DNA of 39,002 nucleotides from an uncultured Candidatus Saccharibacteria bacterium (GCA_964489785.1 CAZAZY010000001.1:1255-40256); one strand, 5' to 3'; positions 1,686 through 24,269 are shown, counted from the first letter of the stretch. Program-made: numbers and translations. The notes: generated from the sequence alone by a model not told the origin.

Positions 1686-2957
1686 TTACCATGTGACATA
1701 GTCCAACAATTCTCCCTTGTAGGTTACAATCAAAGTTCGATCAAATCTGATACGCATCATTCCATCAGATGGGATTTGAATACTTACCAATCTTTGACCC
1801 TGCACCTGAATGACTCCATTATTATGGAGAATGGTAAAACCCTGGGTTTCAAGATTTCTGAACCTGCGCTCGTATTCAGCGAGCTTGGCAGAATCTACAA
1901 AGCCCGTTGGTCCACGAGGACCAGTTTCACCTCGTTCCCCACGATCACCTTTGTCACCCTTGGATCCAGTGTCGCCTTTGGGACCTTGGATACCCTGAGG
2001 ACCAGGCGATCCATCTTTACCTGGAGCACCATCGCGACCAGGTAATCCCTGAGGACCAATCGGACCCTGAACACCATCCTTACCATCACGGCCTGGGGCA
2101 CCAGTTTCACCTCGTTCCCCACGATCACCTTTGTCACCCTTGGATCCAGTGTCGCCTTTGGGACCTTGGATACCCTGAACACCATCCTTACCATCACGGC
2201 CGTCTTTTCCATCGCGCCCATCTTTACCTTTTTCACCCATGGGTGGATTAGGTACATCATAGGCATCTTCTGGAATTTTTAGGTCTGGGGTTTTTGGCTC
2301 GCGGGCCACATAGGGAACCTCCTTGCTTTGACCAGACATCATTTTGCCCGTGGGAACATCTTGATATCCAGATTTCAAAGGATTATCCTTGTCAAAGAGT
2401 GGACTATTCATTCCCACTGGCGAACCATTTGCCAATAATAAAATAATCTTACCTTTGTACACCAAAACTTTTTCACCACGAAGGTCACTAAGTTTGGTCT
2501 TCTTGGGTTTTGAGAAATTATCATACACCCAAACAAAAATACCTGGGTTTTGACGAATAAGGCTTTCATTAATGACAATTTCTCGAGAATCCTCGAGAAT
2601 TTTCCTGGCTTCAATGATATCCCACATACTTTCGCGTGTAGTATATATATTGAAACCAACATCACCTCGATAGCCATAATAAAAAATTTGCCCTAAAAAA
2701 AGACAAATCACATCTCCAATGTTTGAAACACTGGCAGTACCAGCAATAGAATCTTGAAATGTAGATGGACTCATCTTGCGATATTCTGGACGAACCAATT
2801 TTCGATCGCCAGAAAATACACCATTTATCCAACCCCAGCGATTCTCTGCTGAATATGTGAACCCGGATTCCTCTGGGTTATATTTTTGGGCCCAACCTTC
2901 AAACGAAGGCAGAACCCCCAGTATGCACACAGCACACATGACAAAGAACTGTTTCAT
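1686..2957 (-). CDS. Secreted bacterial collagen-like protein: signal peptide, about 215-aa N-terminal globular region, 37 uninterrupted Gly-X-Y triplets, 71-aa C-terminal domain
   Basis: The 423-aa ORF starts MKQFFVMCAVCILGVLPSFEGWAQ (signal peptide). Residues 241-352 (nt about 1902-2237) read GEKGKDGRDGKDGRDGKDGVQGIQGPKGDTG...GETGPRGPTG with Gly at every third position. Confidence 0.85.
   Translation of the reverse strand: MKQFFVMCAVCILGVLPSFEGWAQKYNPEESGFTYSAENRWGWINGVFSGDRKLVRPEYRKMSPSTFQDSIAGTASVSNIGDVICLFLGQIFYYGYRGDVGFNIYTTRESMWDIIEARKILEDSREIVINESLIRQNPGIFVWVYDNFSKPKKTKLSDLRGEKVLVYKGKIILLLANGSPVGMNSPLFDKDNPLKSGYQDVPTGKMMSGQSKEVPYVAREPKTPDLKIPEDAYDVPNPPMGEKGKDGRDGKDGRDGKDGVQGIQGPKGDTGSKGDKGDRGERGETGAPGRDGKDGVQGPIGPQGLPGRDGAPGKDGSPGPQGIQGPKGDTGSKGDKGDRGERGETGPRGPTGFVDSAKLAEYERRFRNLETQGFTILHNNGVIQVQGQRLVSIQIPSDGMMRIRFDRTLIVTYKGELLDYVTW
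1921..2178 (-). repeat. Exact 78-bp direct duplication inside the collagen stalk, copies 180 bp apart
   Basis: Positions 1921-1998 are identical to 2101-2178. The 180-bp offset equals 20 Gly-X-Y triplets. A further 27-bp repeat lies at 2066-2092 and 2175-2201. Confidence 0.9.
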
Positions 2958-4536: not shown

Positions 4537-6729
4537 ATGTCATCAACATTTCAAGAAGACGATCAAATAAAAACCCTCGAAGAGCTTCGCCGCAAAGAAG
4601 AAGAATCTTTGGTGCAGATGTTGGCATCAAAAAACAACATGGCGTATGTGGATTTGACTGGAATGAGTATTGATAACGATGCTCTTATTCTTGTTTCCGA
4701 AGAAGAAGCTCGCGCATGTGAAATTGCACCATTTAAAATTGTCGGCAAGGAATTACAAATCGCTGTACGCTCACCTCATGCGCAAAAAGTAAAAGATAAA
4801 ATTGCAGAACTAGAGAAAAAAGAATACCAAATTACCACCCATCTTGCATCATGGAAAAGCCTTGAAAAAGCTTGGTCTAGATACAAAGACATAAACCAAA
4901 CAACTGCAACCCGAGGTGGATTCGTTGATATTTCTTCAGAAACTTTGGAAAAAATTGCTTCCCGGGTAAAAACCAACAATGATATTAAAAAACTGATTGA
5001 CGAAGCCATTGAAACTGATCCAGGACATATCGTTTCTCGAGTTCTTGAAATTACTCTTGCAGGAGGTATCTCTACAGGATCATCAGATATTCACCTAGAA
5101 GCCCAGGAAGAGCACGCCCTCATCAGATTGCGCCAGGATGGTGTATTACAAGATGTTGCCATTATTTCTACAGAAATCTATAACAAGATTACGTCTCGAT
5201 TGAAGTTGCTTTCTCAAATGAAATTAACCACAACTGCCGGAGCACAAGATGGACGTTTTACTATTGAATACCAAGGAACAGAAATTGAAATTCGTAATTC
5301 TATTATTCCTAGTTCATATGGAGAAGGTTTTGTTATGCGTATTTTGGATCCAAAAGGTTTAACTCGCGGGTTTAATGAATTAGGTATCGAACCAAAACTA
5401 CTTTCTATTTTAGATAAAGAAATCAGAAAACCAAACGGATTACTGTTGACCACTGGCCCAACAGGTTCTGGTAAAACAACCACCCTATATTCATTCTTGA
5501 AAGAATTATATTCTCCTGAAATTAAAATATTAACTATCGAAGACCCTATTGAATACCATCTTCCAGGTATTACCCAAACACAAACCAACCATGAAAAAGG
5601 GTATGATTTTTTGGCGGGTCTTCGTGCTGCATTGCGACAAGACCCCGATATTGTGATGGTCGGTGAAATTCGAGATGCAGAAACTACAAAGATTGCTATC
5701 AATGCGTCTCTGACTGGACACTTTGTGATTTCTACATTGCACACAAACAATGCTGCGGGTGCTATTCCTCGTCTTTTGGATCTTGGTGCCAGCGCGCAGG
5801 TATTAGGGTCTGCCCTATCTGTTGTCATGGCGCAACGTTTGATTCGTCGTGTATGTAAAGATTGCAAAAAAGAAGAACCCCCTACCCCCGAAGAAGAAAT
5901 GTTGATTGATAATCTTATCGCTGGTATTCAGTCAAAAAATATTGATATGGAAAAAGAATACGGGTTGGTATACAAAAAAGGCGAAACAAAAATTGTACGC
6001 GCTGTTGGATGTGAAAAATGTAACAACACGGGATACAAAGGTCGTGTCGGTTTATATGAAGCAATTCTTATGGATAAAAAGATGGAAGAGTTATTGTATG
6101 TACGACCCAGCGAACGTGAAGTTATGAAAACTGCACAATCACAAGGTTTGTTTAATATGCAAGAAGACGGATTATTAAAAATCCTTCGAGGAGAAACAAC
6201 CTTCGAAGAAGTTGGCAGTGCTGTTGATATGGAAGAATGGTTTGATCTTAATCAAGGTGGCGTTCCAAAAGAAACACCCACACAACAACCAGAAACAATT
6301 TCACAACCAATCGTTACTGAAAAAAAAACCGAACCAAAAATACCTAACCCTACTGGAATTAACTTTAATCCAACAGAAAAACCCTTGCGTGACCAAGAGT
6401 TATCATTGTTAGTTGATTATCTACAAACATTAGAACAAGATTACACACAACGCCCAGAAGAATCATTAGCACGAAAAATACAAACAGCAAGAAATACTAT
6501 TTTAGAAATTGTAAAAAATCGCTTTACAGACAACGAAGATAATACTCTTCATGAACAAGAAAAATTAAAGAATGAAATTCACACCATTGTAGAAGAACTT
6601 CAAAACTTAGAGAAAACTTCTCTTGATGTGGGGTCGTTACCTACGACAGTAAATCAATTAACTACAATACGAGGCATCGTAGAAAAAATTCGGCAACAAA
6701 AAACCCCGAGTACACAAATCTCTCAATAA
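4537..6729 (+). CDS. pilB: Type IV pilus / type II secretion assembly ATPase (PilB/GspE family) with an extra C-terminal extension of about 165 aa
   Basis: It has Walker A GPTGSGKTTT, Walker B/Asp box DPDIVMVGEIRD and His box TGHFVISTLHTNNA. A tetra-Cys motif reads CKDCKKE...CEKCNNTGYKGR. The N-terminus resembles a GspE_N domain. Confidence 0.93.
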   Translation: MSSTFQEDDQIKTLEELRRKEEESLVQMLASKNNMAYVDLTGMSIDNDALILVSEEEARACEIAPFKIVGKELQIAVRSPHAQKVKDKIAELEKKEYQITTHLASWKSLEKAWSRYKDINQTTATRGGFVDISSETLEKIASRVKTNNDIKKLIDEAIETDPGHIVSRVLEITLAGGISTGSSDIHLEAQEEHALIRLRQDGVLQDVAIISTEIYNKITSRLKLLSQMKLTTTAGAQDGRFTIEYQGTEIEIRNSIIPSSYGEGFVMRILDPKGLTRGFNELGIEPKLLSILDKEIRKPNGLLLTTGPTGSGKTTTLYSFLKELYSPEIKILTIEDPIEYHLPGITQTQTNHEKGYDFLAGLRAALRQDPDIVMVGEIRDAETTKIAINASLTGHFVISTLHTNNAAGAIPRLLDLGASAQVLGSALSVVMAQRLIRRVCKDCKKEEPPTPEEEMLIDNLIAGIQSKNIDMEKEYGLVYKKGETKIVRAVGCEKCNNTGYKGRVGLYEAILMDKKMEELLYVRPSEREVMKTAQSQGLFNMQEDGLLKILRGETTFEEVGSAVDMEEWFDLNQGGVPKETPTQQPETISQPIVTEKKTEPKIPNPTGINFNPTEKPLRDQELSLLVDYLQTLEQDYTQRPEESLARKIQTARNTILEIVKNRFTDNEDNTLHEQEKLKNEIHTIVEELQNLEKTSLDVGSLPTTVNQLTTIRGIVEKIRQQKTPSTQISQ

Positions 6730-16296: not shown

Positions 16297-17898
16297 TTAT
16301 TGTATTACTTCAATTGGATCTACCTCTTCGGTTTCTTTATTGAGATCGGCGTAGAATTCTTCATCACTTCGAAGATCTAATAACCATAATGTTTCGTCTT
16401 CTTTGTTGATTATGGACATCCATTTTTCATCTGTACTTATTTCTGTTGACCAGATATCTATGAGCTCTCCTCTTTCTAACATTGGCTGGCTGATAAGCGA
16501 TTTTTCACCTGTGGTTGATATAAACCAAATGTCATCAAAAAATCTCGTCATTCCTTGGTACCATAAATCTGGTTGTTGTTCTGGGGTGTCTATGGTTGCT
16601 GGGATACCGCAATAAAATCCATTATCTTTATTACTCCAGACACATTTGTCAGGTAATGTTGGTGGAATAACATCGATTATTTTTTGTGTTGGAATATGAA
16701 GAATCTGGGTTTTTAATTCGTCATTTTGAATAAAGGATACTATTGCATGTTCTCCATCTCCCGCCAATAATGTTGTTAATCCGAATCGATTTCGAATAAA
16801 TCGTGAAAAATGGAAATCAAGAGTGTTTACTAAATAGCCAAATCCCTGAACTTCAAAGCTTGGTTTTGTAGTTACGGTTATAATATTTTCTTTTTGCCAT
16901 AATGCTTTCCATTCAGAAAAACTTGATTCAAAACTTTGTCTTACAGAATTTGTTGCTCGAGTTAGTACATATCCTGTAGATCCTGTCGCTGTTTCTAGAA
17001 TATAAAAGAGTTTTGTTTTATCAGGTGACGCGGCAATACTGGTAATATTATCTGGCATCAATGGGCCACGGACTTCAAACTGGTTTAATTCACCGGATTC
17101 TAATGATCGTGCAGTTTCAAAAATAGATCGGCAGGTTGTCTGTAGTTGATTAATTAATGATTCATCCCATAATGCTCCAGATTCACCCATAATCATTGTC
17201 CTAAACGATCCTAGGGCTGTTAACGTTGATGTATCTAATGATCCTGTTAATACAATTTCTGTTTCTGTTGCTATTGAAAGAAATGATTGAAGAGATTTTA
17301 TTGCCTCTTCCCCTGATTCTGTGGTTACGTTTGTTGTTGGATACGGCGCTTCACATATTTGAATGTTTTTTGGTAAATCAGGATATTGATCCTCTAATTT
17401 CCCAAGAAGAGTTTGAATTTTTTTATTTGAGCTATTCCAAAATCGTGCAATTAATGTTTCGTTTGACAGAAAAGAAACTTCTTCCATAGAGGGAAGATTA
17501 ATCCCTGTTAGTTTTTTTGATGTAGGTAGTTGTTGTACGGGTGCCTGATGGATTAACCCGGTTTCTTTTTCTAGAAAACGTACACTAAATCCCCCCATTG
17601 AATCCGTGTCTGGTGCTACCCAAGAACCTCTAGATGGAAATGATGTTATTTTAAACAGTCTTTCACGCACCCCTTCTTCCACATCGAAATATACATCTTC
17701 CGGTGTTGCTGGTATTTCTTCCGATTGAGGTTGTCCTGGCGTTGTTTGTCCACTAAAAAGACCAAAAAAAGGAGCTAAAAATCCTTCTTCCGAAGATGGA
17801 TCTTTTTTAGAGTCAGATAATAACAAGAACAAAATACCGATAACCAGTATGCTGGCGATAATAACGAGGGCTATGAATTTTTTCTTGTCTTTTTGCAT
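16297..17898 (-). CDS. Signal-anchored hypothetical protein (last gene of the T4SS-like locus)
   Basis: The 533-aa ORF has an N-terminal TM segment FIALVIIASILVIGILFLLL and a Pro/Glu-rich linker, followed by a domain of about 450 aa with no family I recognise. It starts 3 nt after the upstream gene's stop, consistent with translational coupling. Confidence 0.7.
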   Translation of the reverse strand: MQKDKKKFIALVIIASILVIGILFLLLSDSKKDPSSEEGFLAPFFGLFSGQTTPGQPQSEEIPATPEDVYFDVEEGVRERLFKITSFPSRGSWVAPDTDSMGGFSVRFLEKETGLIHQAPVQQLPTSKKLTGINLPSMEEVSFLSNETLIARFWNSSNKKIQTLLGKLEDQYPDLPKNIQICEAPYPTTNVTTESGEEAIKSLQSFLSIATETEIVLTGSLDTSTLTALGSFRTMIMGESGALWDESLINQLQTTCRSIFETARSLESGELNQFEVRGPLMPDNITSIAASPDKTKLFYILETATGSTGYVLTRATNSVRQSFESSFSEWKALWQKENIITVTTKPSFEVQGFGYLVNTLDFHFSRFIRNRFGLTTLLAGDGEHAIVSFIQNDELKTQILHIPTQKIIDVIPPTLPDKCVWSNKDNGFYCGIPATIDTPEQQPDLWYQGMTRFFDDIWFISTTGEKSLISQPMLERGELIDIWSTEISTDEKWMSIINKEDETLWLLDLRSDEEFYADLNKETEEVDPIEVIQ

Positions 17899-17901
17899 AT
17901 A

Positions 17902-19458
17902 TTAAGGTGTTCTTTTTACGTATTTTAGACTGTCTTTTTTAGAATGGTCTTTCAGCGGTGTCGTTAAGAGTGCATTTCCTGGTTGTCTCCCTTCTCCTCC
18001 GCGTGATTCAATAACATTTCCACTTCCAATATATAATAATACATGACCAACAGAATTTCCGCCCTCCCCTGCCTTCCATCCAAGAATATCACCAGGTTTA
18101 AGAAGAATATTATTTACTGATAAACCATTTGCCGATATTGTCGAGATGGATTCTGCATTTGCGAACATTCCACTGGTTCCGGTATTGTGTGTTGGCATAC
18201 CTGCACAACGAAGAGCATAATCAACAAAACCAGAACAATCTAAACATACGGTATTATTAGGACACGTTAGTTTACAAAGACCCGCTGGGTCAGTACACAT
18301 TTTTGTGTCTGCGGGGTATGGTGGTGGCCCACCCTTACCTCCAAAACGATACGTCACCTTTCCTTCAAGGCTGGCAATAACCTGGGGTAATACATTTGAT
18401 CCTCCTGCTTTTGGACAAAATACTTGTGGTGGTACGTAGGGACTACTTGCCAACGGTGCGCTCACGTCCCCTTCTAATTCTAGGGTGAGTGTTTTGATTC
18501 CTGGGTCTAGATTAAGTATGTTTGGGTTGATGGTGTTTAATATTACATACGTTGCAAAAGCAAGAATAAGACCCAATACTGCATTAGTCATTTTTGAAAT
18601 ACCTTCTGATTTTTGGGTAAAAGCATCGGTTGTCATATACTGTACACCCCCAACAACAATCATTAACACCGCCAGCAATGTCGCCACGGCAAGTAATAAT
18701 CGTATAATCGTATTTACATAACCCCCAATTCCCTGTGTCTCTGCATCAAAAACTGGGTCCAAAAATGGTTGGATGGGTTCCAATAATTTATAACATCCTG
18801 GGCGTAAATTCCCTTGGGCATCCTGACATTCTGGTGGGATTTCATTTAGGTCACTTAATCCTGCTCCGGCTAGATCCTCTTCAGTTGTTGAAAGGACAGA
18901 AAATAATATATTTTGGTCGCAATTTGTAGTTGTACTTACTGGTGGATAACAATTATAATCAACGTTGTTTGAAATTGTTGATGTTTCAACAATTTCATCA
19001 TTTCCATCCATGACACGAAGATATAATTCACAGTTTTCTATCCCAAATGCCATGTCGCATTCTTTTTCTCCAAGTTTATAGTCTACGATAATGCGGCTAA
19101 TTTGGTTTTGTATTGCATGTGTACTTGATGCAACCATTTCGTCCTCTTCAATAACTCCAGTTAGTTGTGATACCCCTATAGGTACATCATTTTCCCATAA
19201 TTGAAAAGATAATGTTTTTCCTATACAATCTTTCACTCTGAATGTTGCCCTAAGAACAACATTATTACCACGTATATAAGTTGCTCCTGTGGGCAATATT
19301 TCTTGCTTGATTCCGTAATCCTCAATGGTACACTCTTCAGCGGCATCAGCCTTTTGCGGTGCAGAAACCAAAGAAACAATTGATCCACCTAATACTATTT
19401 GAAATACAAAAAGACCAAGGGATATTTTTTTAATAAAATTGTGCAAGGTTTTCTTCAT
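17902..19458 (-). CDS. Tri-modular T4SS-associated protein: signal peptide + Cys-containing N-domain, VirB2/TrbC-like pilin hairpin, C-terminal NlpC/P60 peptidoglycan hydrolase
   Basis: The signal peptide ends ...APQKADA/AEE. Residues about 211-318 read CQDAQGNLRPGCYKLLEPI..., followed by two hydrophobic helices (LLLAVATLLAVLMIVVGGVQYM and AVLGLILAFATYVILNTINPNIL). Residues about 345-505 carry the NlpC/P60 signature DCSGF (Cys408, nt 18235-18237) and GHVLLYIG (His471). Confidence 0.75.
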   Translation of the reverse strand: MKKTLHNFIKKISLGLFVFQIVLGGSIVSLVSAPQKADAAEECTIEDYGIKQEILPTGATYIRGNNVVLRATFRVKDCIGKTLSFQLWENDVPIGVSQLTGVIEEDEMVASSTHAIQNQISRIIVDYKLGEKECDMAFGIENCELYLRVMDGNDEIVETSTISNNVDYNCYPPVSTTTNCDQNILFSVLSTTEEDLAGAGLSDLNEIPPECQDAQGNLRPGCYKLLEPIQPFLDPVFDAETQGIGGYVNTIIRLLLAVATLLAVLMIVVGGVQYMTTDAFTQKSEGISKMTNAVLGLILAFATYVILNTINPNILNLDPGIKTLTLELEGDVSAPLASSPYVPPQVFCPKAGGSNVLPQVIASLEGKVTYRFGGKGGPPPYPADTKMCTDPAGLCKLTCPNNTVCLDCSGFVDYALRCAGMPTHNTGTSGMFANAESISTISANGLSVNNILLKPGDILGWKAGEGGNSVGHVLLYIGSGNVIESRGGEGRQPGNALLTTPLKDHSKKDSLKYVKRTP

Positions 19459-19461
19459 ATA

Positions 19462-20487
19462 TTATTGAATAAATCGTATTTGAGTATTTGTGGTTGCTTC
19501 TTGAAATAACCATTTGTCGTTTTGTGCAGATACTGAAATGGGCGTGTTTCCTGATTTGTATGCAGTTAATAACATAGTGTCAGCGGTTTCCTTGTTTAAT
19601 GCTGGTATAATTTCTTTGCCTACCTTCCATTCATAGCTCATTGAACCTAATTTTCCAGCTGGATCAATTGCAAAAAAATAAGGGACAGCCTTGATACCAA
19701 GGTTTAATTTTTGTGTTTGATGTCCAGTATTTAAAGATTGTAGATAATTCGTGACACCCTCGTTTTCTGGATAGAGGAGAATTTTGGGTTCAAAAATAGG
19801 AATTGTTATTGCCCCTGATCCTGTATACCCATCCTGAGATGTAATATCTACAATAATCTCCTCGTCCCGATTTAGCATAAGATTGCGAAATAGATAACCT
19901 GTTTTTCCAAATCCAGAATCATTTTGGGCAACCTTGCGGTCACGTTTCCATGTATAAGAAAGATTATTATGTCGCAATGTTTCTCCTGCACGGTTTTTAA
20001 TCACGGGAATTGCTGTGGCTCGGATCTGGCTTTCTCTTGTTGGTAGTGCTTTTCCTCGATAAAATGGTGGAACATATGCGTCAGGTGATTCCCAGAGAAT
20101 ATCTATGTCAGAGGGTGAAATTGAGATGCTTTTTCGCATAATGTCATATCCTGCAATAGTAATAATTGCTTCGATTTCGGTTCTCTCGCCTACCCCACCA
20201 GTTCTTGTTTTATATGTAGTAACACCAGGACCTCCTGATTTTCGTGATCCGTTTTCCATCCAAATAATATTTGCCAAATCCATACGAAAGAAAAAAGATT
20301 CTAATTTTACCGTAATATCGGTATATGGGCTGGGATGTTCGGGGGTTAATGCAATATTAATATTATTAGGGCCGGCTGTAGGTATTACCTGGGCGTTCGC
20401 CTTCCCTGCACCAAAAATATATCCTACACAGAGTAATGTAATGATAAACAAAGCTATTGGTATCGATCGAATCTGCGATACTGTCAT
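19462..20487 (-). CDS. Signal-anchored hypothetical protein, probably beta-rich and extracytoplasmic
   Basis: The 341-aa ORF has an N-terminal TM/signal segment IPIALFIITLLCVGYIFGAGKANAQ. I recognise no family. It lies between virB4 and the pilin-hydrolase gene. Confidence 0.7.
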   Translation of the reverse strand: MTVSQIRSIPIALFIITLLCVGYIFGAGKANAQVIPTAGPNNINIALTPEHPSPYTDITVKLESFFFRMDLANIIWMENGSRKSGGPGVTTYKTRTGGVGERTEIEAIITIAGYDIMRKSISISPSDIDILWESPDAYVPPFYRGKALPTRESQIRATAIPVIKNRAGETLRHNNLSYTWKRDRKVAQNDSGFGKTGYLFRNLMLNRDEEIIVDITSQDGYTGSGAITIPIFEPKILLYPENEGVTNYLQSLNTGHQTQKLNLGIKAVPYFFAIDPAGKLGSMSYEWKVGKEIIPALNKETADTMLLTAYKSGNTPISVSAQNDKWLFQEATTNTQIRFIQ

Positions 20488-20513: not shown

Positions 20514-22352
20514 TTAATTTACAAACCCTGCATTGGATGCAGATGCTAATTCATCTTTTGCTTTCTTGATAGACAATATTTGAGATGGGTCCGATGTAAC
20601 TATCTGGTCTTCTGTATAGGATGCAACTATTTTAATAGCAACGTGTTTCATTCCAGCAAAGAAAATACCTTCTCCTACCCCAGATTCCAATAGAGTGTAT
20701 TTTTCCTCATCAGTAAGGTTAAAGGTTTTTTGTACTACATCAATAGATGATGCGGATTGTTTTAATAGCATCTGTAGAGATGAGTTGGTTACAATAGCAA
20801 TTCCATATTTAGAGCTCATGAAATCGTCCACGTTCTGGCTAATCGTTGCCAGACCAAGATAGTATTTACGACATCGTTTTGCGATACCAAACAAGAATGA
20901 CGCAGTATCTTCGGATTGCATCATCACCCAAGCTTCATCCACCAACAATAGTCGTTTCTTTTTCTCTCGACGGATTGCACCCCAGATAAAGTGCGTTACG
21001 ATATACATCGCTGCGGCTTTTAGTTCGTCTTCCATGTCTCGAATAGAAAAAACCACTAATTTTTTATTGATATCAACATTGGTTGGTTTATTCAAAAATC
21101 CTGCCCATGTTCCTCGTGTGAATTTTGCAAGACGTTGTAATAATGATTCGCTTCCCTCCATCGAAGCCAATACCATTTCAAAGTCAGATAATAATGGTGG
21201 TTCAATAGTAGAAAAATCAGAATCAGGGGTAATGTCTTTTAATGAATAGGTTTCTGCAATTGCGCGGTCAACAATAGAATCTTCTTCGGGACTCAGCCCC
21301 CCCAGTAAAATACGAAACAGTCCAACCAACTGAATAATGTTTGAACGTAAAATATCCCCCGGAGATTCATCTTCTTGTGGTGGTGGAAGATCAAAAGGAT
21401 TAATGTGGTGAGGTGATGACAATGAAATATTAAAATATCTTCCTCCTACTGCTTCCGCCAGGTATTCGTATTCTCGTTCTGGGTCAATAACAATAACTTC
21501 GGTTTCGAACATCATTGTCCGTAGGATTTCTAATTTTAATGCGTATGATTTCCCAGAACCAGATTTTGCGAACATAACTGAATTGTAGTTTTCCAAAGAA
21601 AATCGGTCAAAAATAATCAAACTGGAATTATGACGATTGATGCCATACAAAATCCCCTTTTCATCAGTCAGGTCAAAAGAAACAAAAGGAAAAAAAGATG
21701 ACAATGGTGCTGTGTTCATTTTGAAATCAACACCAATAAGATCTTGCCCTGTAGGCAATGTGCTTTTGAATGTATCTTCTTGTTGGAACATTGCTGGTTT
21801 CAAATAAATCATTCTTGATTCCAATAATGAACGAATTTCATTTTCCACCTTGAACAGTTCGTTCTCTGTATCTGCATACAATGTCATATATAATCCCACA
21901 TCAAACATTTTTTCTGTTGCTTGTTGCAGATTGTCGCGTAAATTTTCAAGATCTTGATATGCGGTATCCAATAATGGGTCTCGAACCATACCTTGGGATT
22001 CTCGGATATGAATCTGGCTTTGTACCTCGGCTACTTTTTTCTGGAATTTCTTTAGAATACTAGCTGTTTCAATGGGGTGTACATGGATTGCGATATCAAA
22101 AATTTTGTCCATGTTGATAATCGGAGCAAGCCAGCTGTCCGAAATAAAACGTGGATACGAGATAACATAAAAACTTCGTGACACTTTATCTCCGATTTTT
22201 ATTGATTTTGCCTGAACCTCAACAGCGGCAGGAGCGATGATGTCTTGTAATTCTAACTGACCCGCCTGATAAATATCTTCGGGTAAAATAGAAGATACAG
22301 ATGTTGCTGATGAAGTTTTTTTTGTTCCAAAGAGTGAATCAATAATTCCCAT
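20514..22352 (-). CDS. virB4: VirB4/TrsE-family type IV secretion ATPase
   Basis: The 612-aa ORF has Walker A FAKSGSGKSY and Walker B RLLLVDEAW. Its N-terminal region (IIAPAAVEVQAKSIKIGDKVSRSFYVISYPRFISDSWL) follows the Gram-positive VirB4 pattern. Confidence 0.88.
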   Translation of the reverse strand: MGIIDSLFGTKKTSSATSVSSILPEDIYQAGQLELQDIIAPAAVEVQAKSIKIGDKVSRSFYVISYPRFISDSWLAPIINMDKIFDIAIHVHPIETASILKKFQKKVAEVQSQIHIRESQGMVRDPLLDTAYQDLENLRDNLQQATEKMFDVGLYMTLYADTENELFKVENEIRSLLESRMIYLKPAMFQQEDTFKSTLPTGQDLIGVDFKMNTAPLSSFFPFVSFDLTDEKGILYGINRHNSSLIIFDRFSLENYNSVMFAKSGSGKSYALKLEILRTMMFETEVIVIDPEREYEYLAEAVGGRYFNISLSSPHHINPFDLPPPQEDESPGDILRSNIIQLVGLFRILLGGLSPEEDSIVDRAIAETYSLKDITPDSDFSTIEPPLLSDFEMVLASMEGSESLLQRLAKFTRGTWAGFLNKPTNVDINKKLVVFSIRDMEDELKAAAMYIVTHFIWGAIRREKKKRLLLVDEAWVMMQSEDTASFLFGIAKRCRKYYLGLATISQNVDDFMSSKYGIAIVTNSSLQMLLKQSASSIDVVQKTFNLTDEEKYTLLESGVGEGIFFAGMKHVAIKIVASYTEDQIVTSDPSQILSIKKAKDELASASNAGFVN

Positions 22353-22398: not shown

Positions 22399-23031
22399 TT
22401 ATGAATGCTCGCCTTCTATTTTCATTGCCTTTTGAGCATCTCCTGGATTAAAGGTTCCATGGAAAAGTTCGATAATTTCTTGGGTCCCTAATTGTTTTGT
22501 TTTTACTCCAACTTGGTTTAATCCCGAAGCAACCAATGCAATACGTTGTTCCAACTGAGATCGAGTTTCCTCGAACCGTTCTTCGGATTTTTCCGCTGTT
22601 GTCTGTTGTCCAGATTTTTTTGTTGCAGATTGTGCCATGCTTTGCGCAAAAGGAACTACAACAAAAAAGTGTTTTTTCATAATATTTACTTTTTCTGTAA
22701 ACGTACGAATGAATTCTATGTATTCTCGGGTTTGTACGCGAAGTAGTTCTTCCTTTTGGACTTTAAGTTTTTCTTCTAAGGTCATTAAATAAGGGCGGAT
22801 ATCATGTTTTCGGGATTGCACGACTATTTGAATAGAAAAATCCAGTGAATTAAAAAACGCCTGAAATTGGGCAATGGTTGCACGCTGTTCTTCTTCGGAT
22901 TTTAACGCAAGATTAACTGATGAAGCCAACAATATAGATCGGATTCCCCCATCTTTGAGAATTAATACTCCATCACGAATTTCTTTGATGGGTACAAAAT
23001 TTTGACTAGGAGTTCCTGTGCTGTTTAACAT
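22399..23031 (-). CDS. Hypothetical protein resembling a detached VirB4 N-terminal module
   Basis: The 210-aa ORF lies directly upstream of virB4. The segment QNFVPIKEIRDGVLILKDGGIRSILLASSVNLALKSEEEQRATIAQFQAFFNSLDFSIQIVVQS matches, from memory, the N-terminal pattern of long (about 800 aa) Firmicute VirB4-like ATPases. Confidence 0.5.
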   Translation of the reverse strand: MLNSTGTPSQNFVPIKEIRDGVLILKDGGIRSILLASSVNLALKSEEEQRATIAQFQAFFNSLDFSIQIVVQSRKHDIRPYLMTLEEKLKVQKEELLRVQTREYIEFIRTFTEKVNIMKKHFFVVVPFAQSMAQSATKKSGQQTTAEKSEERFEETRSQLEQRIALVASGLNQVGVKTKQLGTQEIIELFHGTFNPGDAQKAMKIEGEHS

Positions 23032-23148: not shown

Positions 23149-23559
23149 ATGCAATTTCAAATGCCACAATTTATTGATGTTGAAGACAAAATTTTTGGAC
23201 CTCTTACGTTCAAACAATTCGTGTACGTAGCAGGAGGTATTGGTTTGGGATATGTGTCATATCGATTCTTGCCTATTTTCCTTGGGATTCCTATAGCTCT
23301 GGTTGTTGCTGGGTTGGGTGTATTGTTGGCATTTTATCAATACAATCAAAGACCCTTTATCGATATATTGCAGGCATGGGTTGGCTTTACCGTCAGTAAA
23401 AAATTGTATCTATGGAAAAGAGAGCCCGTTCGACAGGCAGATAAAACAAAACAACAGTCACGTCAGGGCCCTGAAACTATGGTGCAGCAAAGAATGGTTT
23501 CCAGTGAATCTATTTCTCAGATATCTCGCAATTTGGATCTTTTTGATAAGAAACAATAA
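23149..23559 (+). CDS. PrgI-family (VirB3-like) small membrane protein
   Basis: The 136-aa ORF starts MQFQMPQFIDVEDKIFGPLTFKQFVYVAGGIGLGYVSYRFL, followed by a second TM segment IPIALVVAGLGVLLAF. This is the PrgI pattern of Gram-positive T4SSs. It is divergent from the virB4 operon. Confidence 0.7.
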   Translation: MQFQMPQFIDVEDKIFGPLTFKQFVYVAGGIGLGYVSYRFLPIFLGIPIALVVAGLGVLLAFYQYNQRPFIDILQAWVGFTVSKKLYLWKREPVRQADKTKQQSRQGPETMVQQRMVSSESISQISRNLDLFDKKQ

Positions 23560-23615: not shown

Positions 23616-24269
23616 TTATATAATAGGCTCTCTGTATGGGTCGTGTGAAACGACTTCTGGTTTTTTAGGAATCATGGGTATATCAGCTGCATCACTGCTG
23701 TGATTTGATGTTACCTGTGTTGCAGTGTGTAATCCAGACATTTTTTGTTCGATGCTGTTTTTTACAGGCATAGGGGGTAGATCTGCATCTTCCCCTATTT
23801 TTATTTCAATGACAGGATCTTTTTTGGGTGTTTCTGGTTCTGTGCCTGATGTCACTTCCCCCACCTGATTATCATCTACAATAGTAGATGATTCTGTATC
23901 TTCACCAATATGAATACCGGCATCCCGTAACGTTGCATGTTGGTCACGATCTTCTTCTGCATATTGCAAAACCAAATCCCGAAGAGGCATAAAGATTTTT
24001 TGATTTGCGTCTTCAACTATTTGTGATGCTGCTGTTGTGCTAATTTCCAAACGTTTTTTTAATTCAGAAACATAACTACTGGCAGGAACTAATCCAACTA
24101 ATACTAGTGTTGTTTCTTGTTCTAATGTATCTAATTGATCCAGGTTCAAATCGTAGGTCTTTCCAATAGCCAAGATTTGTGTTTTCCAATCAAAATCATG
24201 TAATGCGCGCTGAGTTACCGACGGCAATTTTTTTATTTGTTCTTCAATTTTTTGTGTTAATGGGTCCAT
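23616..24269 (-). CDS. Hypothetical soluble protein with an acidic C-terminal half
   Basis: The 217-aa ORF has no TM segment and lies 13 nt downstream of the VirB6-like gene. I recognise no family. Confidence 0.65.
   Translation of the reverse strand: MDPLTQKIEEQIKKLPSVTQRALHDFDWKTQILAIGKTYDLNLDQLDTLEQETTLVLVGLVPASSYVSELKKRLEISTTAASQIVEDANQKIFMPLRDLVLQYAEEDRDQHATLRDAGIHIGEDTESSTIVDDNQVGEVTSGTEPETPKKDPVIEIKIGEDADLPPMPVKNSIEQKMSGLHTATQVTSNHSSDAADIPMIPKKPEVVSHDPYREPII

What the first reader, a model, noticed from the sequence alone, without database searches (positions are those of the whole stretch)
17902..19458. Single polypeptide fusing a VirB2-like pilin hairpin to an NlpC/P60 cell-wall hydrolase
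After a signal peptide and a Cys-containing domain of about 160 aa comes the pilin-like region, residues about 211-318 (nt 18505-18828). It reads CQDAQGNLRPGCYKLLEPI and is followed by two hydrophobic helices joined by a short polar loop and ending in INPNILNL. This is the topology of TrbC/VirB2-type T4SS pilins. Residues about 345-505 (nt 17944-18426) carry the NlpC/P60 catalytic signature DCSGF (Cys408) and GHVLLYIG (His471). In characterised systems the pilin and the peptidoglycan hydrolase (VirB1, PrgK, CwlT, TcpG) are separate proteins. A covalent fusion would place wall-cutting activity exactly at the membrane channel or pilus. Alternatively it could be a precursor that is cleaved into three products.
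Basis: partly seen in the sequence, partly recalled or inferred. Interest (0 to 1): 0.7.

Follow-up and report, generated by a model that had tools for sequence, protein, structure and literature searches.

The report
Pilin-anchored cell-wall hydrolase of Patescibacteria T4SS
This is a real, conserved gene in an ultra-small (Patescibacteria) bacterium. It joins a secretion-system pilin-like membrane hairpin to a cell-wall-cutting enzyme in one protein. The design is widespread in this group but has not been discussed in the literature I could search.

Summary
ORF 17902-19458(-) encodes 518 aa with these parts:
- a signal peptide;
- a variable Ig-like beta-sandwich;
- a two-helix hydrophobic hairpin;
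- a flexible linker;
- an NlpC/P60 domain (Cys408, His472, Glu484).

**The hairpin is a pilin module.** It belongs to the Patescibacteria T4SS_pilin family (PF18895). Pfam scores it E 1.2e-5, just under the cut-off. Profile-profile comparison with stand-alone pilins gives 99.9 % probability, E 3.6e-32.

**The hairpin is the most constrained part.** It is 99 % identical to a 72 % orthologue, against 75 % for the enzyme domain.

**The fusion is not an artefact.**
- The exact ORF recurs in an independent assembly.
- An orthologue recurs on 11 contigs.
- In 28 of 28 Patescibacteria genomes carrying this NlpC/P60 subtype, the hydrolase is fused to the pilin module.

**Locus.** The gene sits in a chromosomal monoderm-type T4SS locus (PrgI, TrsD, VirB4) next to dnaA.

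**Other fusions.** The same module is also fused to VanY, YkuD, M15, M23, SLT, 3D and CHAP domains, and it occurs as tandem poly-pilins.

**Most likely role.** It is probably a pilin-tethered, VirB1-like wall hydrolase of the T4SS. Display on a pilus or proteolytic processing remain open.

**Verdict.** A new variant of a known kind. Interest 0.6.

The parts
17902..19458 (-). Whole gene: a 518-aa tripartite envelope protein (signal peptide, Ig-like domain, pilin-family hairpin, NlpC/P60).
   Evidence: ORF listing and translation. Pfam hits. The exact protein recurs in an independent assembly.
19342..19458 (-). Residues 1-39: Sec-type signal peptide with a Lys-rich n-region, a hydrophobic core at 12-33, and ADA|AEE as the putative signal peptidase I site.
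   Evidence: Hydropathy and sequence. AF2 predicts helix 2-27 followed by a low-confidence stretch at 28-39. Cleavage is inferred, not shown.
18847..19341 (-). Residues 40-204: variable Ig/Fn3-like beta-sandwich with 6 Cys, predicted to be extracytoplasmic.
   Evidence: AF2 strands 44-195. Foldseek matches Fn3-like domains of GH3 enzymes and Ig-like ASF1 and PA1606 folds at E about 3e-3 to 3e-2. It is only 60 % identical to the 72 % orthologue. It is found only in the close relatives P0002/P0003 and, by overall alignment, in P0022. Other family members carry DUF5018, Fn3-like or TIG N-terminal domains.
18745..18846 (-). Residues 205-238: pre-helix segment with the Cys211...Cys222 loop and the conserved Y-x-L-L-x-P-(I/L)-P motif (YKLLEPIQP).
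   Evidence: Alignments A2, A3 and A4. The same motif lies near the mature N-terminus of stand-alone pilins and precedes every repeat in poly-pilin proteins.
18505..18744 (-). Residues 239-318: VirB2-family (PF18895 T4SS_pilin) helical hairpin. It comprises TM1, a short K-x-x-G-(K) loop predicted to be cytoplasmic, TM2, and the NTINPN motif.
   Evidence: Pfam T4SS_pilin E 1.2e-5 and TrbC E 0.008. hhalign to stand-alone pilins gives 99.9 %, E 3.6e-32. AF2 predicts helices 239-276 and 280-310 with pLDDT about 90-95. The segment is 99 % identical to the orthologue despite 48 % synonymous codon differences. There is a weak NCBIfam hit to the Mbov_0395 pilin-like conjugal transfer protein.
18424..18504 (-). 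Residues 319-345: flexible linker, followed by the invariant Asp331.
   Evidence: AF2 pLDDT is below 50 for residues 319-329. The linker is 70 % identical to the orthologue. D331 is invariant in 19 fusions.
17905..18423 (-). Residues 346-518: NlpC/P60 (C40) peptidoglycan peptidase domain with Cys408, His472, Glu484 and six further conserved Cys.
   Evidence: Pfam NLPC_P60 29.2 bits against a cut-off of 23. C408 and H472 are invariant in 19 homologues. phmmer against PDB finds 3H41, 7CFL, RipB 3PBI and CwlO; Glu484 aligns with the third catalytic His of 3H41. The top Foldseek hit is endolysin Lys2972, E 3.6e-4.
19462..20487 (-). Upstream partner gene (341 aa, signal peptide, no family hit), separated from the fusion gene by 3 nt (TAA-TAT-ATG).
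   Evidence: Syntenic in 7 other genomes.
16297..17898 (-). Downstream partner gene (533 aa, one N-terminal TM segment, no family hit), also separated by TAA-TAT-ATG.
   Evidence: Syntenic. A related gene in L038 has faint beta-propeller hits.
20514..22352 (-). VirB4-like T4SS ATPase, CD1110 (monoderm conjugation) family.
   Evidence: Pfam P-loop_TraG 92 bits. NCBIfam conju_CD1110 372 bits against a cut-off of 325.
22399..23031 (-). TrsD-like protein, which corresponds to a split-off VirB4 N-terminal domain.
   Evidence: NCBIfam TrsD, plus matches to the N-terminal parts of the VirB4 models. The orthologue carries Pfam TraC-like.
23149..23559 (+). PrgI (VirB3-like) protein.
   Evidence: Pfam PrgI 45.3 bits against a cut-off of 27.
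24283..26418 (-). Polytopic membrane protein (about 7 hydrophobic segments), a putative VirB6 analogue.
   Evidence: Hydropathy and synteny. There is no family hit, so the label is an inference.

Best explanation
The gene encodes the cell-wall hydrolase of a chromosomal, monoderm-type (MPF-FATA-like) type IV secretion system of a Patescibacteria (Paceibacteria-like) bacterium. The hydrolase is built onto a pilin-family module instead of an ordinary anchor.

**Proposed mechanism.**
1. After Sec export and probable signal-peptide removal, the VirB2-family hairpin sits in the membrane with both ends outside.
2. The variable Ig-like domain and the NlpC/P60 domain therefore both face the wall. The NlpC/P60 domain is on a roughly 25-residue flexible tether.
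3. Because the anchor is itself a pilin-type unit, it can pack with other pilin subunits or dock on the pilin-handling platform (VirB6-like, PrgI, VirB4).
4. Peptide-stem cleavage of peptidoglycan is thus confined to the site where the machine crosses the wall. This is the job done by VirB1, PrgK, CwlT, TcpG or Orf14 elsewhere.

**Shown here.** The ORF is real. Both domains are homologous to their families. The catalytic residues are conserved. The hairpin is under very strong constraint. The fusion is conserved. The gene lies two genes downstream of virB4.

**Inferred.** Signal-peptide cleavage, the N-out/C-out topology, the bond that is cleaved, docking to the T4SS, and whether the target is the cell's own wall, the host's wall or both.
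For: **Domain identities.**
- Pfam hits to NLPC_P60, T4SS_pilin and TrbC.
- The fused-module profile retrieves stand-alone pilins.
- hhalign to stand-alone pilins gives 99.9 %, E 3.6e-32.
- The NlpC/P60 domain matches solved NlpC/P60 enzymes.

**Catalytic residues.** Cys408 and His472 are invariant, and residue 484 is polar (E/Q/N/D) in 19 homologues.

**Topology.**
- All 15 Cys lie in the predicted outside segments and none in the hairpin.
- The inter-helix loop carries the conserved Lys residues.

**Constraint on the hairpin.** It is 99 % identical to the orthologue, against 75 % for the enzyme domain and 60 % for the N-terminal domain. G271, A293, G296, L297, L307, N311 and P312 are nearly invariant across 60 proteins with different enzyme domains.

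**Locus.**
- The window order is VirB6-like, PrgI, TrsD, VirB4, g341, fusion, g533, then jag, yidC and dnaA.
- The same order is found in 7 species genomes and in orthologue contigs.
- The junctions on both sides of the gene are 3 nt long.
- No other pilin-module ORF exists in the 39-kb window.
- No relaxase or coupling protein was detected in the window.

**Literature.**
- T4SS-linked hydrolases are essential in S. epibionticum.
- Patescibacteria genomes with VirB2 mostly appear to lack VirB1.
- In that survey's Table S3, a protein two genes after VirB4 is listed as VirB2 with PF00877.
Against: - **Many loci lack virB4 nearby.** Of the 28 Patescibacteria loci, 7 share the immediate synteny, 2 have virB4 about 6-7 kb away, and 19 have no virB4 within the sequence held (up to 10 kb flanks). 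In those 19 the fusion sits alone or in arrays of pilin-module genes.
- **Formal pilin membership is marginal.** The PF18895 score of this protein is 0.8 bit under Pfam's cut-off, and PF04956 is far under.
- **Structure comparison does not help.** The isolated hairpin model has no Foldseek hit better than E = 2. The hairpin profile has no PDB sequence hit.
- **The pilus itself is unproven.** No PF18895 protein has been shown to form a pilus.
- **The N-terminal domain is unexplained.** A simple VirB1-like role does not account for the 165-aa variable Ig-like domain.
- **Poly-pilin proteins point elsewhere.** Proteins with 4 to 11 hairpins in one chain suggest concatenated assembly or processing. 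That would fit the rival explanations at least as well.
Confidence: 0.5

Rival explanations
1. Armed pilus. The protein is a minor pilin subunit that is incorporated into, or at the tip or base of, a VirB2-type filament built mainly from stand-alone pilins encoded elsewhere. The Ig-like domain and the hydrolase are displayed on the outside of the filament. They bind and locally digest the wall of the host bacterium on which the epibiont lives.
For: - The hairpin is fully homologous to stand-alone pilins and is extremely conserved.
- Both termini of the module are predicted to be outside, so extra domains are topologically tolerated.
- Arrays mix stand-alone pilins with pilin-enzyme fusions, for example L019, L022 and L024.
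- The fused enzymes together cover most bonds of peptidoglycan: NlpC/P60, CHAP, M23, VanY/M15, YkuD, SLT and 3D.
- The N-terminal domain is variable, as expected for a host-contact surface.
- Pilins and the T4SS are essential for epibiotic growth in Saccharibacteria.
Against: - No pilus has been seen for any Patescibacteria T4SS.
- Two domains of about 20 kDa on each subunit would crowd a VirB2-type filament (inference from known pilus geometry, my own knowledge).
- No stand-alone pilin gene lies in the window or within 10 kb in the seven syntenic genomes.
Confidence: 0.2
2. Polyprotein precursor. The chain is cleaved outside the membrane into an Ig-like fragment, a mature pilin of about 90-110 aa, and a free NlpC/P60 enzyme.
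For: - A disordered linker follows the hairpin.
- The Y-x-L-L-x-P-L-P motif sits near the mature N-terminus of stand-alone pilins. It recurs before each hairpin in poly-pilin chains such as P0112, which has 4 hairpins plus SLT in a continuous ORF.
- Canonical TrbC, VirB2 and TraA pilins are matured by N- and C-terminal processing (my own knowledge).
- A TraX homologue lies at the head of the cluster. In plasmid F, TraX acetylates the pilin N-terminus (my own knowledge).
Against: - No conserved cleavage motif was found in the linkers.
- No TraF/LepB-like or other candidate protease was detected in the window.
- TM2 is a full-length transmembrane helix without a small-x-small site after it (inference).
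- The fusion persists across distant classes, with at least ten enzyme families and variable linkers. That pattern is more typical of a functional tether.
Confidence: 0.15
3. Housekeeping wall enzyme. The hairpin is simply the way Patescibacteria anchor peptidoglycan-remodelling enzymes in the membrane. The protein serves growth and division, not secretion.
For: - Most family members found are not next to virB4.
- The fused domains include biosynthetic or remodelling types such as YkuD L,D-transpeptidase and VanY carboxypeptidase.
- The family is very large, with 85,899 representative clusters at E <= 1e-3.
Against: - The module is homologous to bona fide T4SS-cluster pilins.
- In the window's lineage the gene is locked into the virB4 operon in all syntenic genomes.
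- The hairpin is more conserved than the catalytic domain, which a passive anchor would not need.
- Elsewhere the genes sit in arrays with stand-alone pilins.
Confidence: 0.12
4. Artefact. Two genes were joined by an assembly error or frameshift, or the hairpin plus lysin comes from a phage lysis module.
For: None was found. A two-TM segment followed by a lysin superficially resembles a holin-endolysin pair.
Against: - The identical ORF is present in an independent assembly.
- The orthologue is intact on 11 contigs.
- 28 of 28 genomes are fused.
- Purifying selection acts along the whole ORF.
- There is no relative in 2.9 million viral contigs.
Confidence: 0.01

Closest known systems
Patescibacteria/CPR chromosomal T4SS with VirB2-like pilins (Wang et al. 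2023, PMC10633639; Quinonero-Coronel et al. 2025, PMC12102498)
   Same: - The component set matches: VirB4 of the monoderm family, TrsD, PrgI, a large polytopic protein and a PF18895 pilin module.
- No relaxase or coupling protein is present in the locus.
- The locus lies next to dnaA, dnaN, rnpA-yidC-jag and ksgA.
   Different: - In S. epibionticum the pilins are small stand-alone proteins in an array, and the hydrolases are separate genes.
- Here the only pilin-type module in 39 kb is fused to the hydrolase.
- The published survey lists such proteins as 'VirB2'. One row carries PF00877 two genes after VirB4. The text does not discuss a fusion.
Cell-wall hydrolases of Gram-positive conjugation systems: PrgK (pCF10), TraG (pIP501), CwlT (ICEBs1), TcpG (pCW3), Orf14/CD419 (Tn916-like)
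   Same: - A membrane-tethered peptidoglycan hydrolase with an NlpC/P60 or CHAP-type Cys peptidase domain.
- It is encoded in the T4SS cluster close to virB4 and is presumed to open the wall for the machine (my own knowledge for the individual proteins).
   Different: - Those enzymes use an N-terminal signal or TM segment and usually add a glycosidase domain.
- None carries a VirB2-family hairpin.
- Here the anchor is an internal pilin module flanked by an extra Ig-like domain.
VirB2/TrbC/TraA conjugative pilins (PF04956) and T4SS_pilin (PF18895)
   Same: - A signal peptide followed by two hydrophobic helices joined by a short basic loop.
- The predicted topology has both ends outside.
- Profile-level homology to stand-alone PF18895/PF04956 proteins.
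   Different: - Canonical pilins are about 70-120 aa when mature, with no extra domains.
- This protein has about 200 aa on each side of the hairpin.
- Its own PF04956 score is far below threshold.
Agrobacterium VirB1 / VirB1*
   Same: A functional link between a T4SS wall hydrolase and pilus biogenesis (my own knowledge).
   Different: - VirB1 is a soluble periplasmic lytic transglycosylase of a diderm system.
- It is a separate gene product and is unrelated in fold to NlpC/P60.

Membership tests
NlpC/P60 (Pfam PF00877, MEROPS C40) | Profile score above the curated cut-off | tested here: met
   29.2 bits against a cut-off of 23, residues 378-489. Homologues score 28-42 bits.
NlpC/P60 (Pfam PF00877, MEROPS C40) | Catalytic Cys (in D-C-S-G), His and a third polar residue | tested here: met
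   Cys408 and His472 are invariant in 19 homologues. Residue 484 is E/Q/N/D. Glu484 aligns with the third His of 3H41.
NlpC/P60 (Pfam PF00877, MEROPS C40) | Papain-like alpha+beta fold | tested here: met
   The AF2 domain has pLDDT mostly above 90. The best Foldseek hit of the whole model is endolysin Lys2972 (8TW1), E 3.6e-4. Sequence hits include 3H41, 7CFL, RipB and CwlO.
NlpC/P60 (Pfam PF00877, MEROPS C40) | Hydrolysis of peptidoglycan peptide stems | not testable with these tools
   This needs the purified domain, a zymogram and muropeptide analysis.
T4SS_pilin (PF18895) / VirB2 superfamily | Pfam PF18895 score above the curated cut-off for this sequence | tested here: not met
   25.8 bits against a cut-off of 26.6, E 1.2e-5, near full-length model coverage at 5-71 of 71. 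The miss is 0.8 bit.
T4SS_pilin (PF18895) / VirB2 superfamily | Homology to accepted family members at profile level | tested here: met
   - The fused-module profile finds stand-alone PF18895 pilins at E down to 6e-31.
- hhalign gives 99.9 %, E 3.6e-32.
- All 70 related representatives hit PF18895, with best E 1.3e-12.
T4SS_pilin (PF18895) / VirB2 superfamily | TrbC/VirB2 PF04956 score above cut-off | tested here: not met
   16.8 bits against a cut-off of 27.9. Ten of 70 relatives and several stand-alone relatives do hit PF04956.
T4SS_pilin (PF18895) / VirB2 superfamily | Two hydrophobic helices with a short basic loop, placed after a signal peptide | tested here: met
   Hydropathy. AF2 predicts helices 239-276 and 280-310. 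The topology itself is inferred.
T4SS_pilin (PF18895) / VirB2 superfamily | Structural match to solved conjugative pilins | tested here: inconclusive
   Foldseek with the hairpin model gives no hit better than E = 2. The hairpin profile has no PDB sequence hit. A bare helical hairpin is too simple to be diagnostic.
T4SS_pilin (PF18895) / VirB2 superfamily | Small mature protein without additional domains | tested here: not met
   The protein is 518 aa, with about 200 aa of folded domain on each side of the hairpin.
T4SS_pilin (PF18895) / VirB2 superfamily | Polymerises into an extracellular pilus | not testable with these tools
   No pilus has yet been shown for any Patescibacteria T4SS.
Monoderm T4SS wall hydrolases (VirB1-like: PrgK, TraG, CwlT, TcpG, Orf14/CD419) | Peptidoglycan hydrolase encoded inside the T4SS cluster near virB4 | tested here: met
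   The gene lies two genes downstream of virB4 with 3-nt junctions. It is syntenic in 7 genomes.
Monoderm T4SS wall hydrolases (VirB1-like: PrgK, TraG, CwlT, TcpG, Orf14/CD419) | Match to the CONJScan CD419 or TrsG profiles used to define VirB1 in monoderms | not tested
   Those profiles are not available here. The published survey reports that VirB1 hits are associated with virB4 only in Paceibacteria.
Monoderm T4SS wall hydrolases (VirB1-like: PrgK, TraG, CwlT, TcpG, Orf14/CD419) | Required for T4SS function | not testable with these tools
   This needs genetics. T4SS-linked hydrolases are essential in S. epibionticum.
Patescibacteria MPF-FATA-like T4SS locus | VirB4 of the monoderm clade plus TrsD and PrgI, near dnaA, without relaxase or T4CP | tested here: met
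   - conju_CD1110 scores 372 bits against a cut-off of 325; TrsD is also detected.
- PrgI scores 45.3 bits.
- dnaA, dnaN, yidC and jag are adjacent.
- No relaxase or T4CP is present among the ORFs scanned.

The most novel reading that the evidence does not exclude
In Patescibacteria the VirB2-type pilin module may be a general carrier. It would display a complete peptidoglycan-degrading toolkit (endopeptidases, carboxypeptidases, lytic transglycosylases, L,D-transpeptidase-like domains), together with variable Ig-like binding domains, on or at a T4SS filament. Some of these carriers would be covalently concatenated poly-pilins. This 'armed pilus' would be the device with which these epibionts breach the wall of their host cell to feed.
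Probability: 0.15. Interest if true: 0.85.

Novelty: new variant of a known kind. Interest (0 to 1): 0.6.

Why it matters
**The open question.** The T4SS of Patescibacteria is essential for the epibiotic life of the only member tested genetically. What it moves, and how it crosses two cell walls, is unknown.

**What this finding changes.**
- The published survey concluded that most genomes with VirB2 lack VirB1, so pilus biogenesis may not need a hydrolase. In a large part of the phylum, however, the 'VirB2' protein itself carries the hydrolase.
- Many 'pilin arrays' are really arrays of pilin-enzyme fusions.
- This changes how those counts should be read.
- It gives a concrete, testable handle on where wall cutting is coupled to the machine.
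- It suggests that the pilin hairpin is a portable targeting or assembly unit.

If the enzymes act on the host wall, these proteins would be direct effectors of parasitism.

Tried and rejected
1. **Sequence search of the hairpin profile against all PDB chains.** No hit even at E 10.
2. **Foldseek of a hairpin-only AF2 model against PDB.** Only generic helical hairpins came up, at E >= 2, and no conjugative pilin. Fold comparison therefore cannot settle pilin membership.
3. **First attempt to scan genomes with the 60-sequence alignment.** It failed because no stretch was conserved enough. It was repeated with 19 closer sequences.
4. **Search of IMG/VR viral contigs, to test a phage lysis-module origin.** No relatives were found.
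5. **Attempts to extend beyond the window, to look for stand-alone pilins on the same contig.** Three edge proteins were not on record, and one was only on short contigs.
6. **Last protein-database search, using the NlpC/P60 domain alone to look for split forms.** It returned nothing, with only 81 candidates, and is uninformative.
7. **An apparent 776-aa ORF in L014 with two pilin modules.** It turned out to span a masked run of N. It is most likely two adjacent fusion genes, pilin-M23 and pilin-NlpC/P60.
8. **Search for a protease that could process the protein.** None was found among the window's ORFs.
9. **Literature searches for any description of a pilin-hydrolase fusion.** Nothing was found beyond the two T4SS papers and a review.
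Full report
**1. The observation.**

The minus-strand ORF 17902-19458 is real: ATG start, 518 codons, no internal stop.
- CQDAQ...EPI at 211-229;
- INPNILNL at 310-317;
- DCSGF at 407-411;
- GHVLLYIG at 471-478. The catalytic His is therefore 472, not 471.

Hydropathy gives an N-terminal signal-like segment, with ADA|AEE at residues 37-39/40. It also gives two long hydrophobic segments at about 244-280 and 289-315.

Pfam reports three relevant hits:
- NLPC_P60 above its cut-off (29.2 against 23);
- T4SS_pilin PF18895 just below its cut-off (25.8 against 26.6, E 1.2e-5, almost full model coverage);
- a weak TrbC/VirB2 hit (E 0.008).

**2. Anatomy.**

An AlphaFold2 model made with 60 homologues has mean pLDDT 80.6. 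It shows:
- a beta-sandwich over residues 44-195;
- two long helices, 239-276 and 280-310;
- a disordered stretch at 319-329;
- a very confident NlpC/P60 domain.

Foldseek matches the C-terminal domain to a streptococcal phage endolysin. It matches the N-terminal domain to Fn3/Ig-like modules.

The enzyme domain matches solved NlpC/P60 endopeptidases by sequence: 3H41, 7CFL, RipB and CwlO. Glu484 sits where 3H41 has its third catalytic His. Cys408 and His472 are invariant in 19 homologues.

All 15 cysteines lie in the segments predicted to be outside the membrane, and none lies in the hairpin. The conserved lysines are in the inter-helix loop. This fits a topology with both large domains outside. 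That topology is inferred.

**3. Is the hairpin a pilin module or a generic anchor?**

Four lines of evidence point to a pilin module.
- A profile of 34 such modules, searched against 5.8 billion proteins, retrieved stand-alone proteins of 97-228 aa annotated PF18895. Some also carry PF04956, and one is named 'pilin' by NCBI. E-values go down to 6e-31.
- hhalign between the fused-module profile and a profile of these stand-alone pilins gives 99.9 % probability, E 3.6e-32.
- Against a 72 % identical orthologue the hairpin is 79/80 identical, although 48 % of those codons differ at the DNA level. The enzyme domain is 75 % identical and the N-terminal domain 60 %.
- Across 60 proteins with different catalytic domains, seven hairpin positions are nearly invariant.

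A passive anchor would not be the most constrained part of the protein.

Structure comparison could not add anything. The hairpin-only model has no Foldseek hit better than E = 2. The profile has no PDB sequence hit.

**4. Is the fusion real?**

- The identical protein is encoded on an independent Logan assembly of run SRR14492199.
- The orthologue P0002 is intact on 11 contigs from several JGI and ENA samples, with identical neighbours.
- Of 66 database homologues, 45 have the pilin module followed by NlpC/P60 in the same order by phmmer. One more has it by precomputed Pfam.
- A scan of one genome per GTDB species, using motifs from the enzyme domain, found 28 Patescibacteria loci (Nomura-, Paceibacterota, Parcu-, Uhr-, Falkow-, Buchananbacteria and others). 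In all 28 the same ORF also carries the pilin module.
- No relative exists in 2.9 million viral contigs.

**5. Context.**

The gene lies in a tight minus-strand block: TrsD-like (22399-23031), VirB4 (20514-22352), a 341-aa secreted protein, the fusion, and a 533-aa single-pass protein. The junctions on both sides of the fusion gene are TAA-TAT-ATG.

- VirB4 passes NCBIfam's cut-off for the CD1110 monoderm conjugation family (372 against 325). The TrsD-like protein matches the N-terminal part of VirB4 models.
- PrgI/VirB3 is encoded at 23149-23559(+).
- A seven-segment polytopic protein (24283-26418) is a likely VirB6 analogue by inference.
- jag, yidC, dnaA and dnaN follow on one side. TraX, ksgA and uvrD lie on the other.
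- No relaxase, coupling protein or second pilin-type ORF is in the window.
- The same gene order is found in seven other species genomes.

This is the Patescibacteria T4SS described by Wang et al. 2023 and Quinonero-Coronel et al. 2025, in the arrangement typical of Paceibacteria near dnaA.

**6. The wider family.**

The same hairpin is fused to many other wall-active domains.
- Among the first homologues these are SLT, YkuD, VanY, M15_4 and M23.
- Some arrays carry several fusions. L024 encodes pilin-NlpC/P60, pilin-3D and pilin-M23 in a row. L019 encodes two stand-alone pilins followed by pilin-NlpC/P60, pilin-unknown and pilin-VanY.
- A profile search of 1.84 billion representatives gave 85,899 hits at E <= 1e-3. 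The best 150 are mostly 250-1775 aa long.
- Of 70 single-module representatives, all hit PF18895. Their other domains are VanY (9), YkuD (6), M15_4 (4), NlpC/P60 (3), SLT-type (5), M15 (2) and CHAP (1). Several have Ig/Fn3-like N-terminal domains.
- Some proteins contain several hairpins in one chain. P0112 has four hairpins and an SLT domain in a continuous ORF. It sits at the position syntenic with the window's gene, directly after a pilin-NlpC/P60 gene.

By contrast, in S. epibionticum the T4SS-linked hydrolases and the six pilins are separate genes.

**7. Mechanism.**

The best-supported reading is a pilin-tethered, VirB1-like wall hydrolase of the T4SS (confidence 0.5). The enzyme is held on a short flexible tether next to a module that can pack with pilin subunits or dock on the pilin-handling platform. 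Wall cutting is thereby confined to the machine.

Rival explanations:
- display on a filament to attack the host's wall (0.2);
- a precursor cleaved into pilin and free enzyme (0.15);
- a housekeeping wall enzyme that merely uses this anchor (0.12);
- an artefact (0.01).

The main evidence against the preferred reading:
- Of the 28 loci, 19 have no virB4 within the flanks held.
- No pilus has been shown for any PF18895 protein.
- The variable Ig-like domain is unexplained.
- The poly-pilin chains hint at concatenated assembly or processing.

**8. Novelty.**

The T4SS, its VirB2-like pilins and its position near dnaA are known. The fused architecture is present in databases, where it is annotated 'C40 family peptidase' or 'NlpC/P60 protein'. 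It also appears in the published survey's Table S3: a protein two genes after VirB4 is listed as VirB2 with PF00877.

I found no text describing or interpreting the fusion in any of these sources:
- that survey;
- Wang et al. 2023;
- the 2025 T4SS review;
- the full-text searches.

The survey in fact infers that VirB1 is dispensable because most VirB2-bearing genomes lack it. The fusions qualify that conclusion.

I rate this as a new variant of a known kind, with interest 0.6.

Noticed in passing
window 30738-31457 (-): A TraX-family protein (Pfam 145.6 bits) is encoded at the upstream end of the T4SS block. In plasmid F, TraX acetylates the pilin N-terminus (my own knowledge). The word TraX does not occur in the published Patescibacteria T4SS survey. 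Its synteny could not be checked because it lies beyond the 10-kb flanks of the fetched loci.
   Followed up: partly
L038:1361-3217 (+); proteins P0112, P0113, P0114, P0111: Poly-pilin proteins exist. P0112 has four pilin hairpins plus an SLT domain in one continuous ORF (checked, no stops). It sits directly after a pilin-NlpC/P60 gene and before g533-like, jag, yidC and rnpA. P0114 (1147 aa) has 11 T4SS_pilin repeats, and P0111 (1775 aa) has 17 matched stretches. These two were not checked for gene-calling artefacts.
   Followed up: partly
window 18772-18798 (-), residues 221-229; alignments A3, A4: A conserved motif Y-x-L-L-x-P-(I/L)-P-(G) lies about 15-25 residues before the first helix, outside the Pfam model. 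In stand-alone pilins it sits near the mature N-terminus. In poly-pilins it precedes each repeat (F/YQLEMPLG). Its role is unknown; it could be a processing, sorting or packing element.
   Followed up: partly
window 22399-23031 (-) and 20514-22352 (-): The 210-aa TrsD-like protein matches the N-terminal part of full-length VirB4 models (Mbov_0397 positions 99-283, CD1110 positions 2-171). The 612-aa VirB4 starts at model position about 183. VirB4 is therefore split into two genes here.
   Followed up: partly
window 19462-20487 (-) and 16297-17898 (-): Two proteins flank the fusion gene: 341 aa with a signal peptide, and 533 aa with one N-terminal TM segment. Neither has a family hit. They flank the fusion gene in all seven syntenic genomes. 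Both junctions read TAA-TAT-ATG, which suggests translational coupling. A related downstream gene in L038 has faint beta-propeller hits.
   Followed up: partly
window 26418-29798 (-), 29868-30710 (-), 23616-24269 (-), 34173-36371 (-): Large ORFs of 1126, 280, 217 and 732 aa lie in or next to the T4SS block and have no Pfam or NCBIfam hit. The 1126-aa protein has a signal-like N-terminus and is weakly conserved in L005.
   Followed up: no
window 1686-2957 (-): A 423-aa protein with collagen triple-helix repeats (Pfam 76 bits) lies in the most GC-rich part of the window (0.449 against about 0.37).
   Followed up: no
window 4537-6729 (+): A PilB/GspE-type ATPase (T2SSE 369 bits plus an MshEN domain), which is a type IV pilus or type II secretion motor, is encoded about 11 kb from the T4SS block.
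   Followed up: no
window 17902-19458 (-), residues 242-310: There is a weak NCBIfam hit (E 0.005) to the Mbov_0395 family 'pilin-like conjugal transfer protein' of Mycoplasma ICEs. This hints that pilin-like hairpins may be native to monoderm MPF-FATA systems rather than borrowed from diderm systems.
   Followed up: no
L014:9257-11584: An apparent 776-aa ORF with the order pilin, M23, pilin, NlpC/P60 spans a masked run of N. It is most likely two adjacent fusion genes. This is a caution for automated architecture counts.
   Followed up: yes
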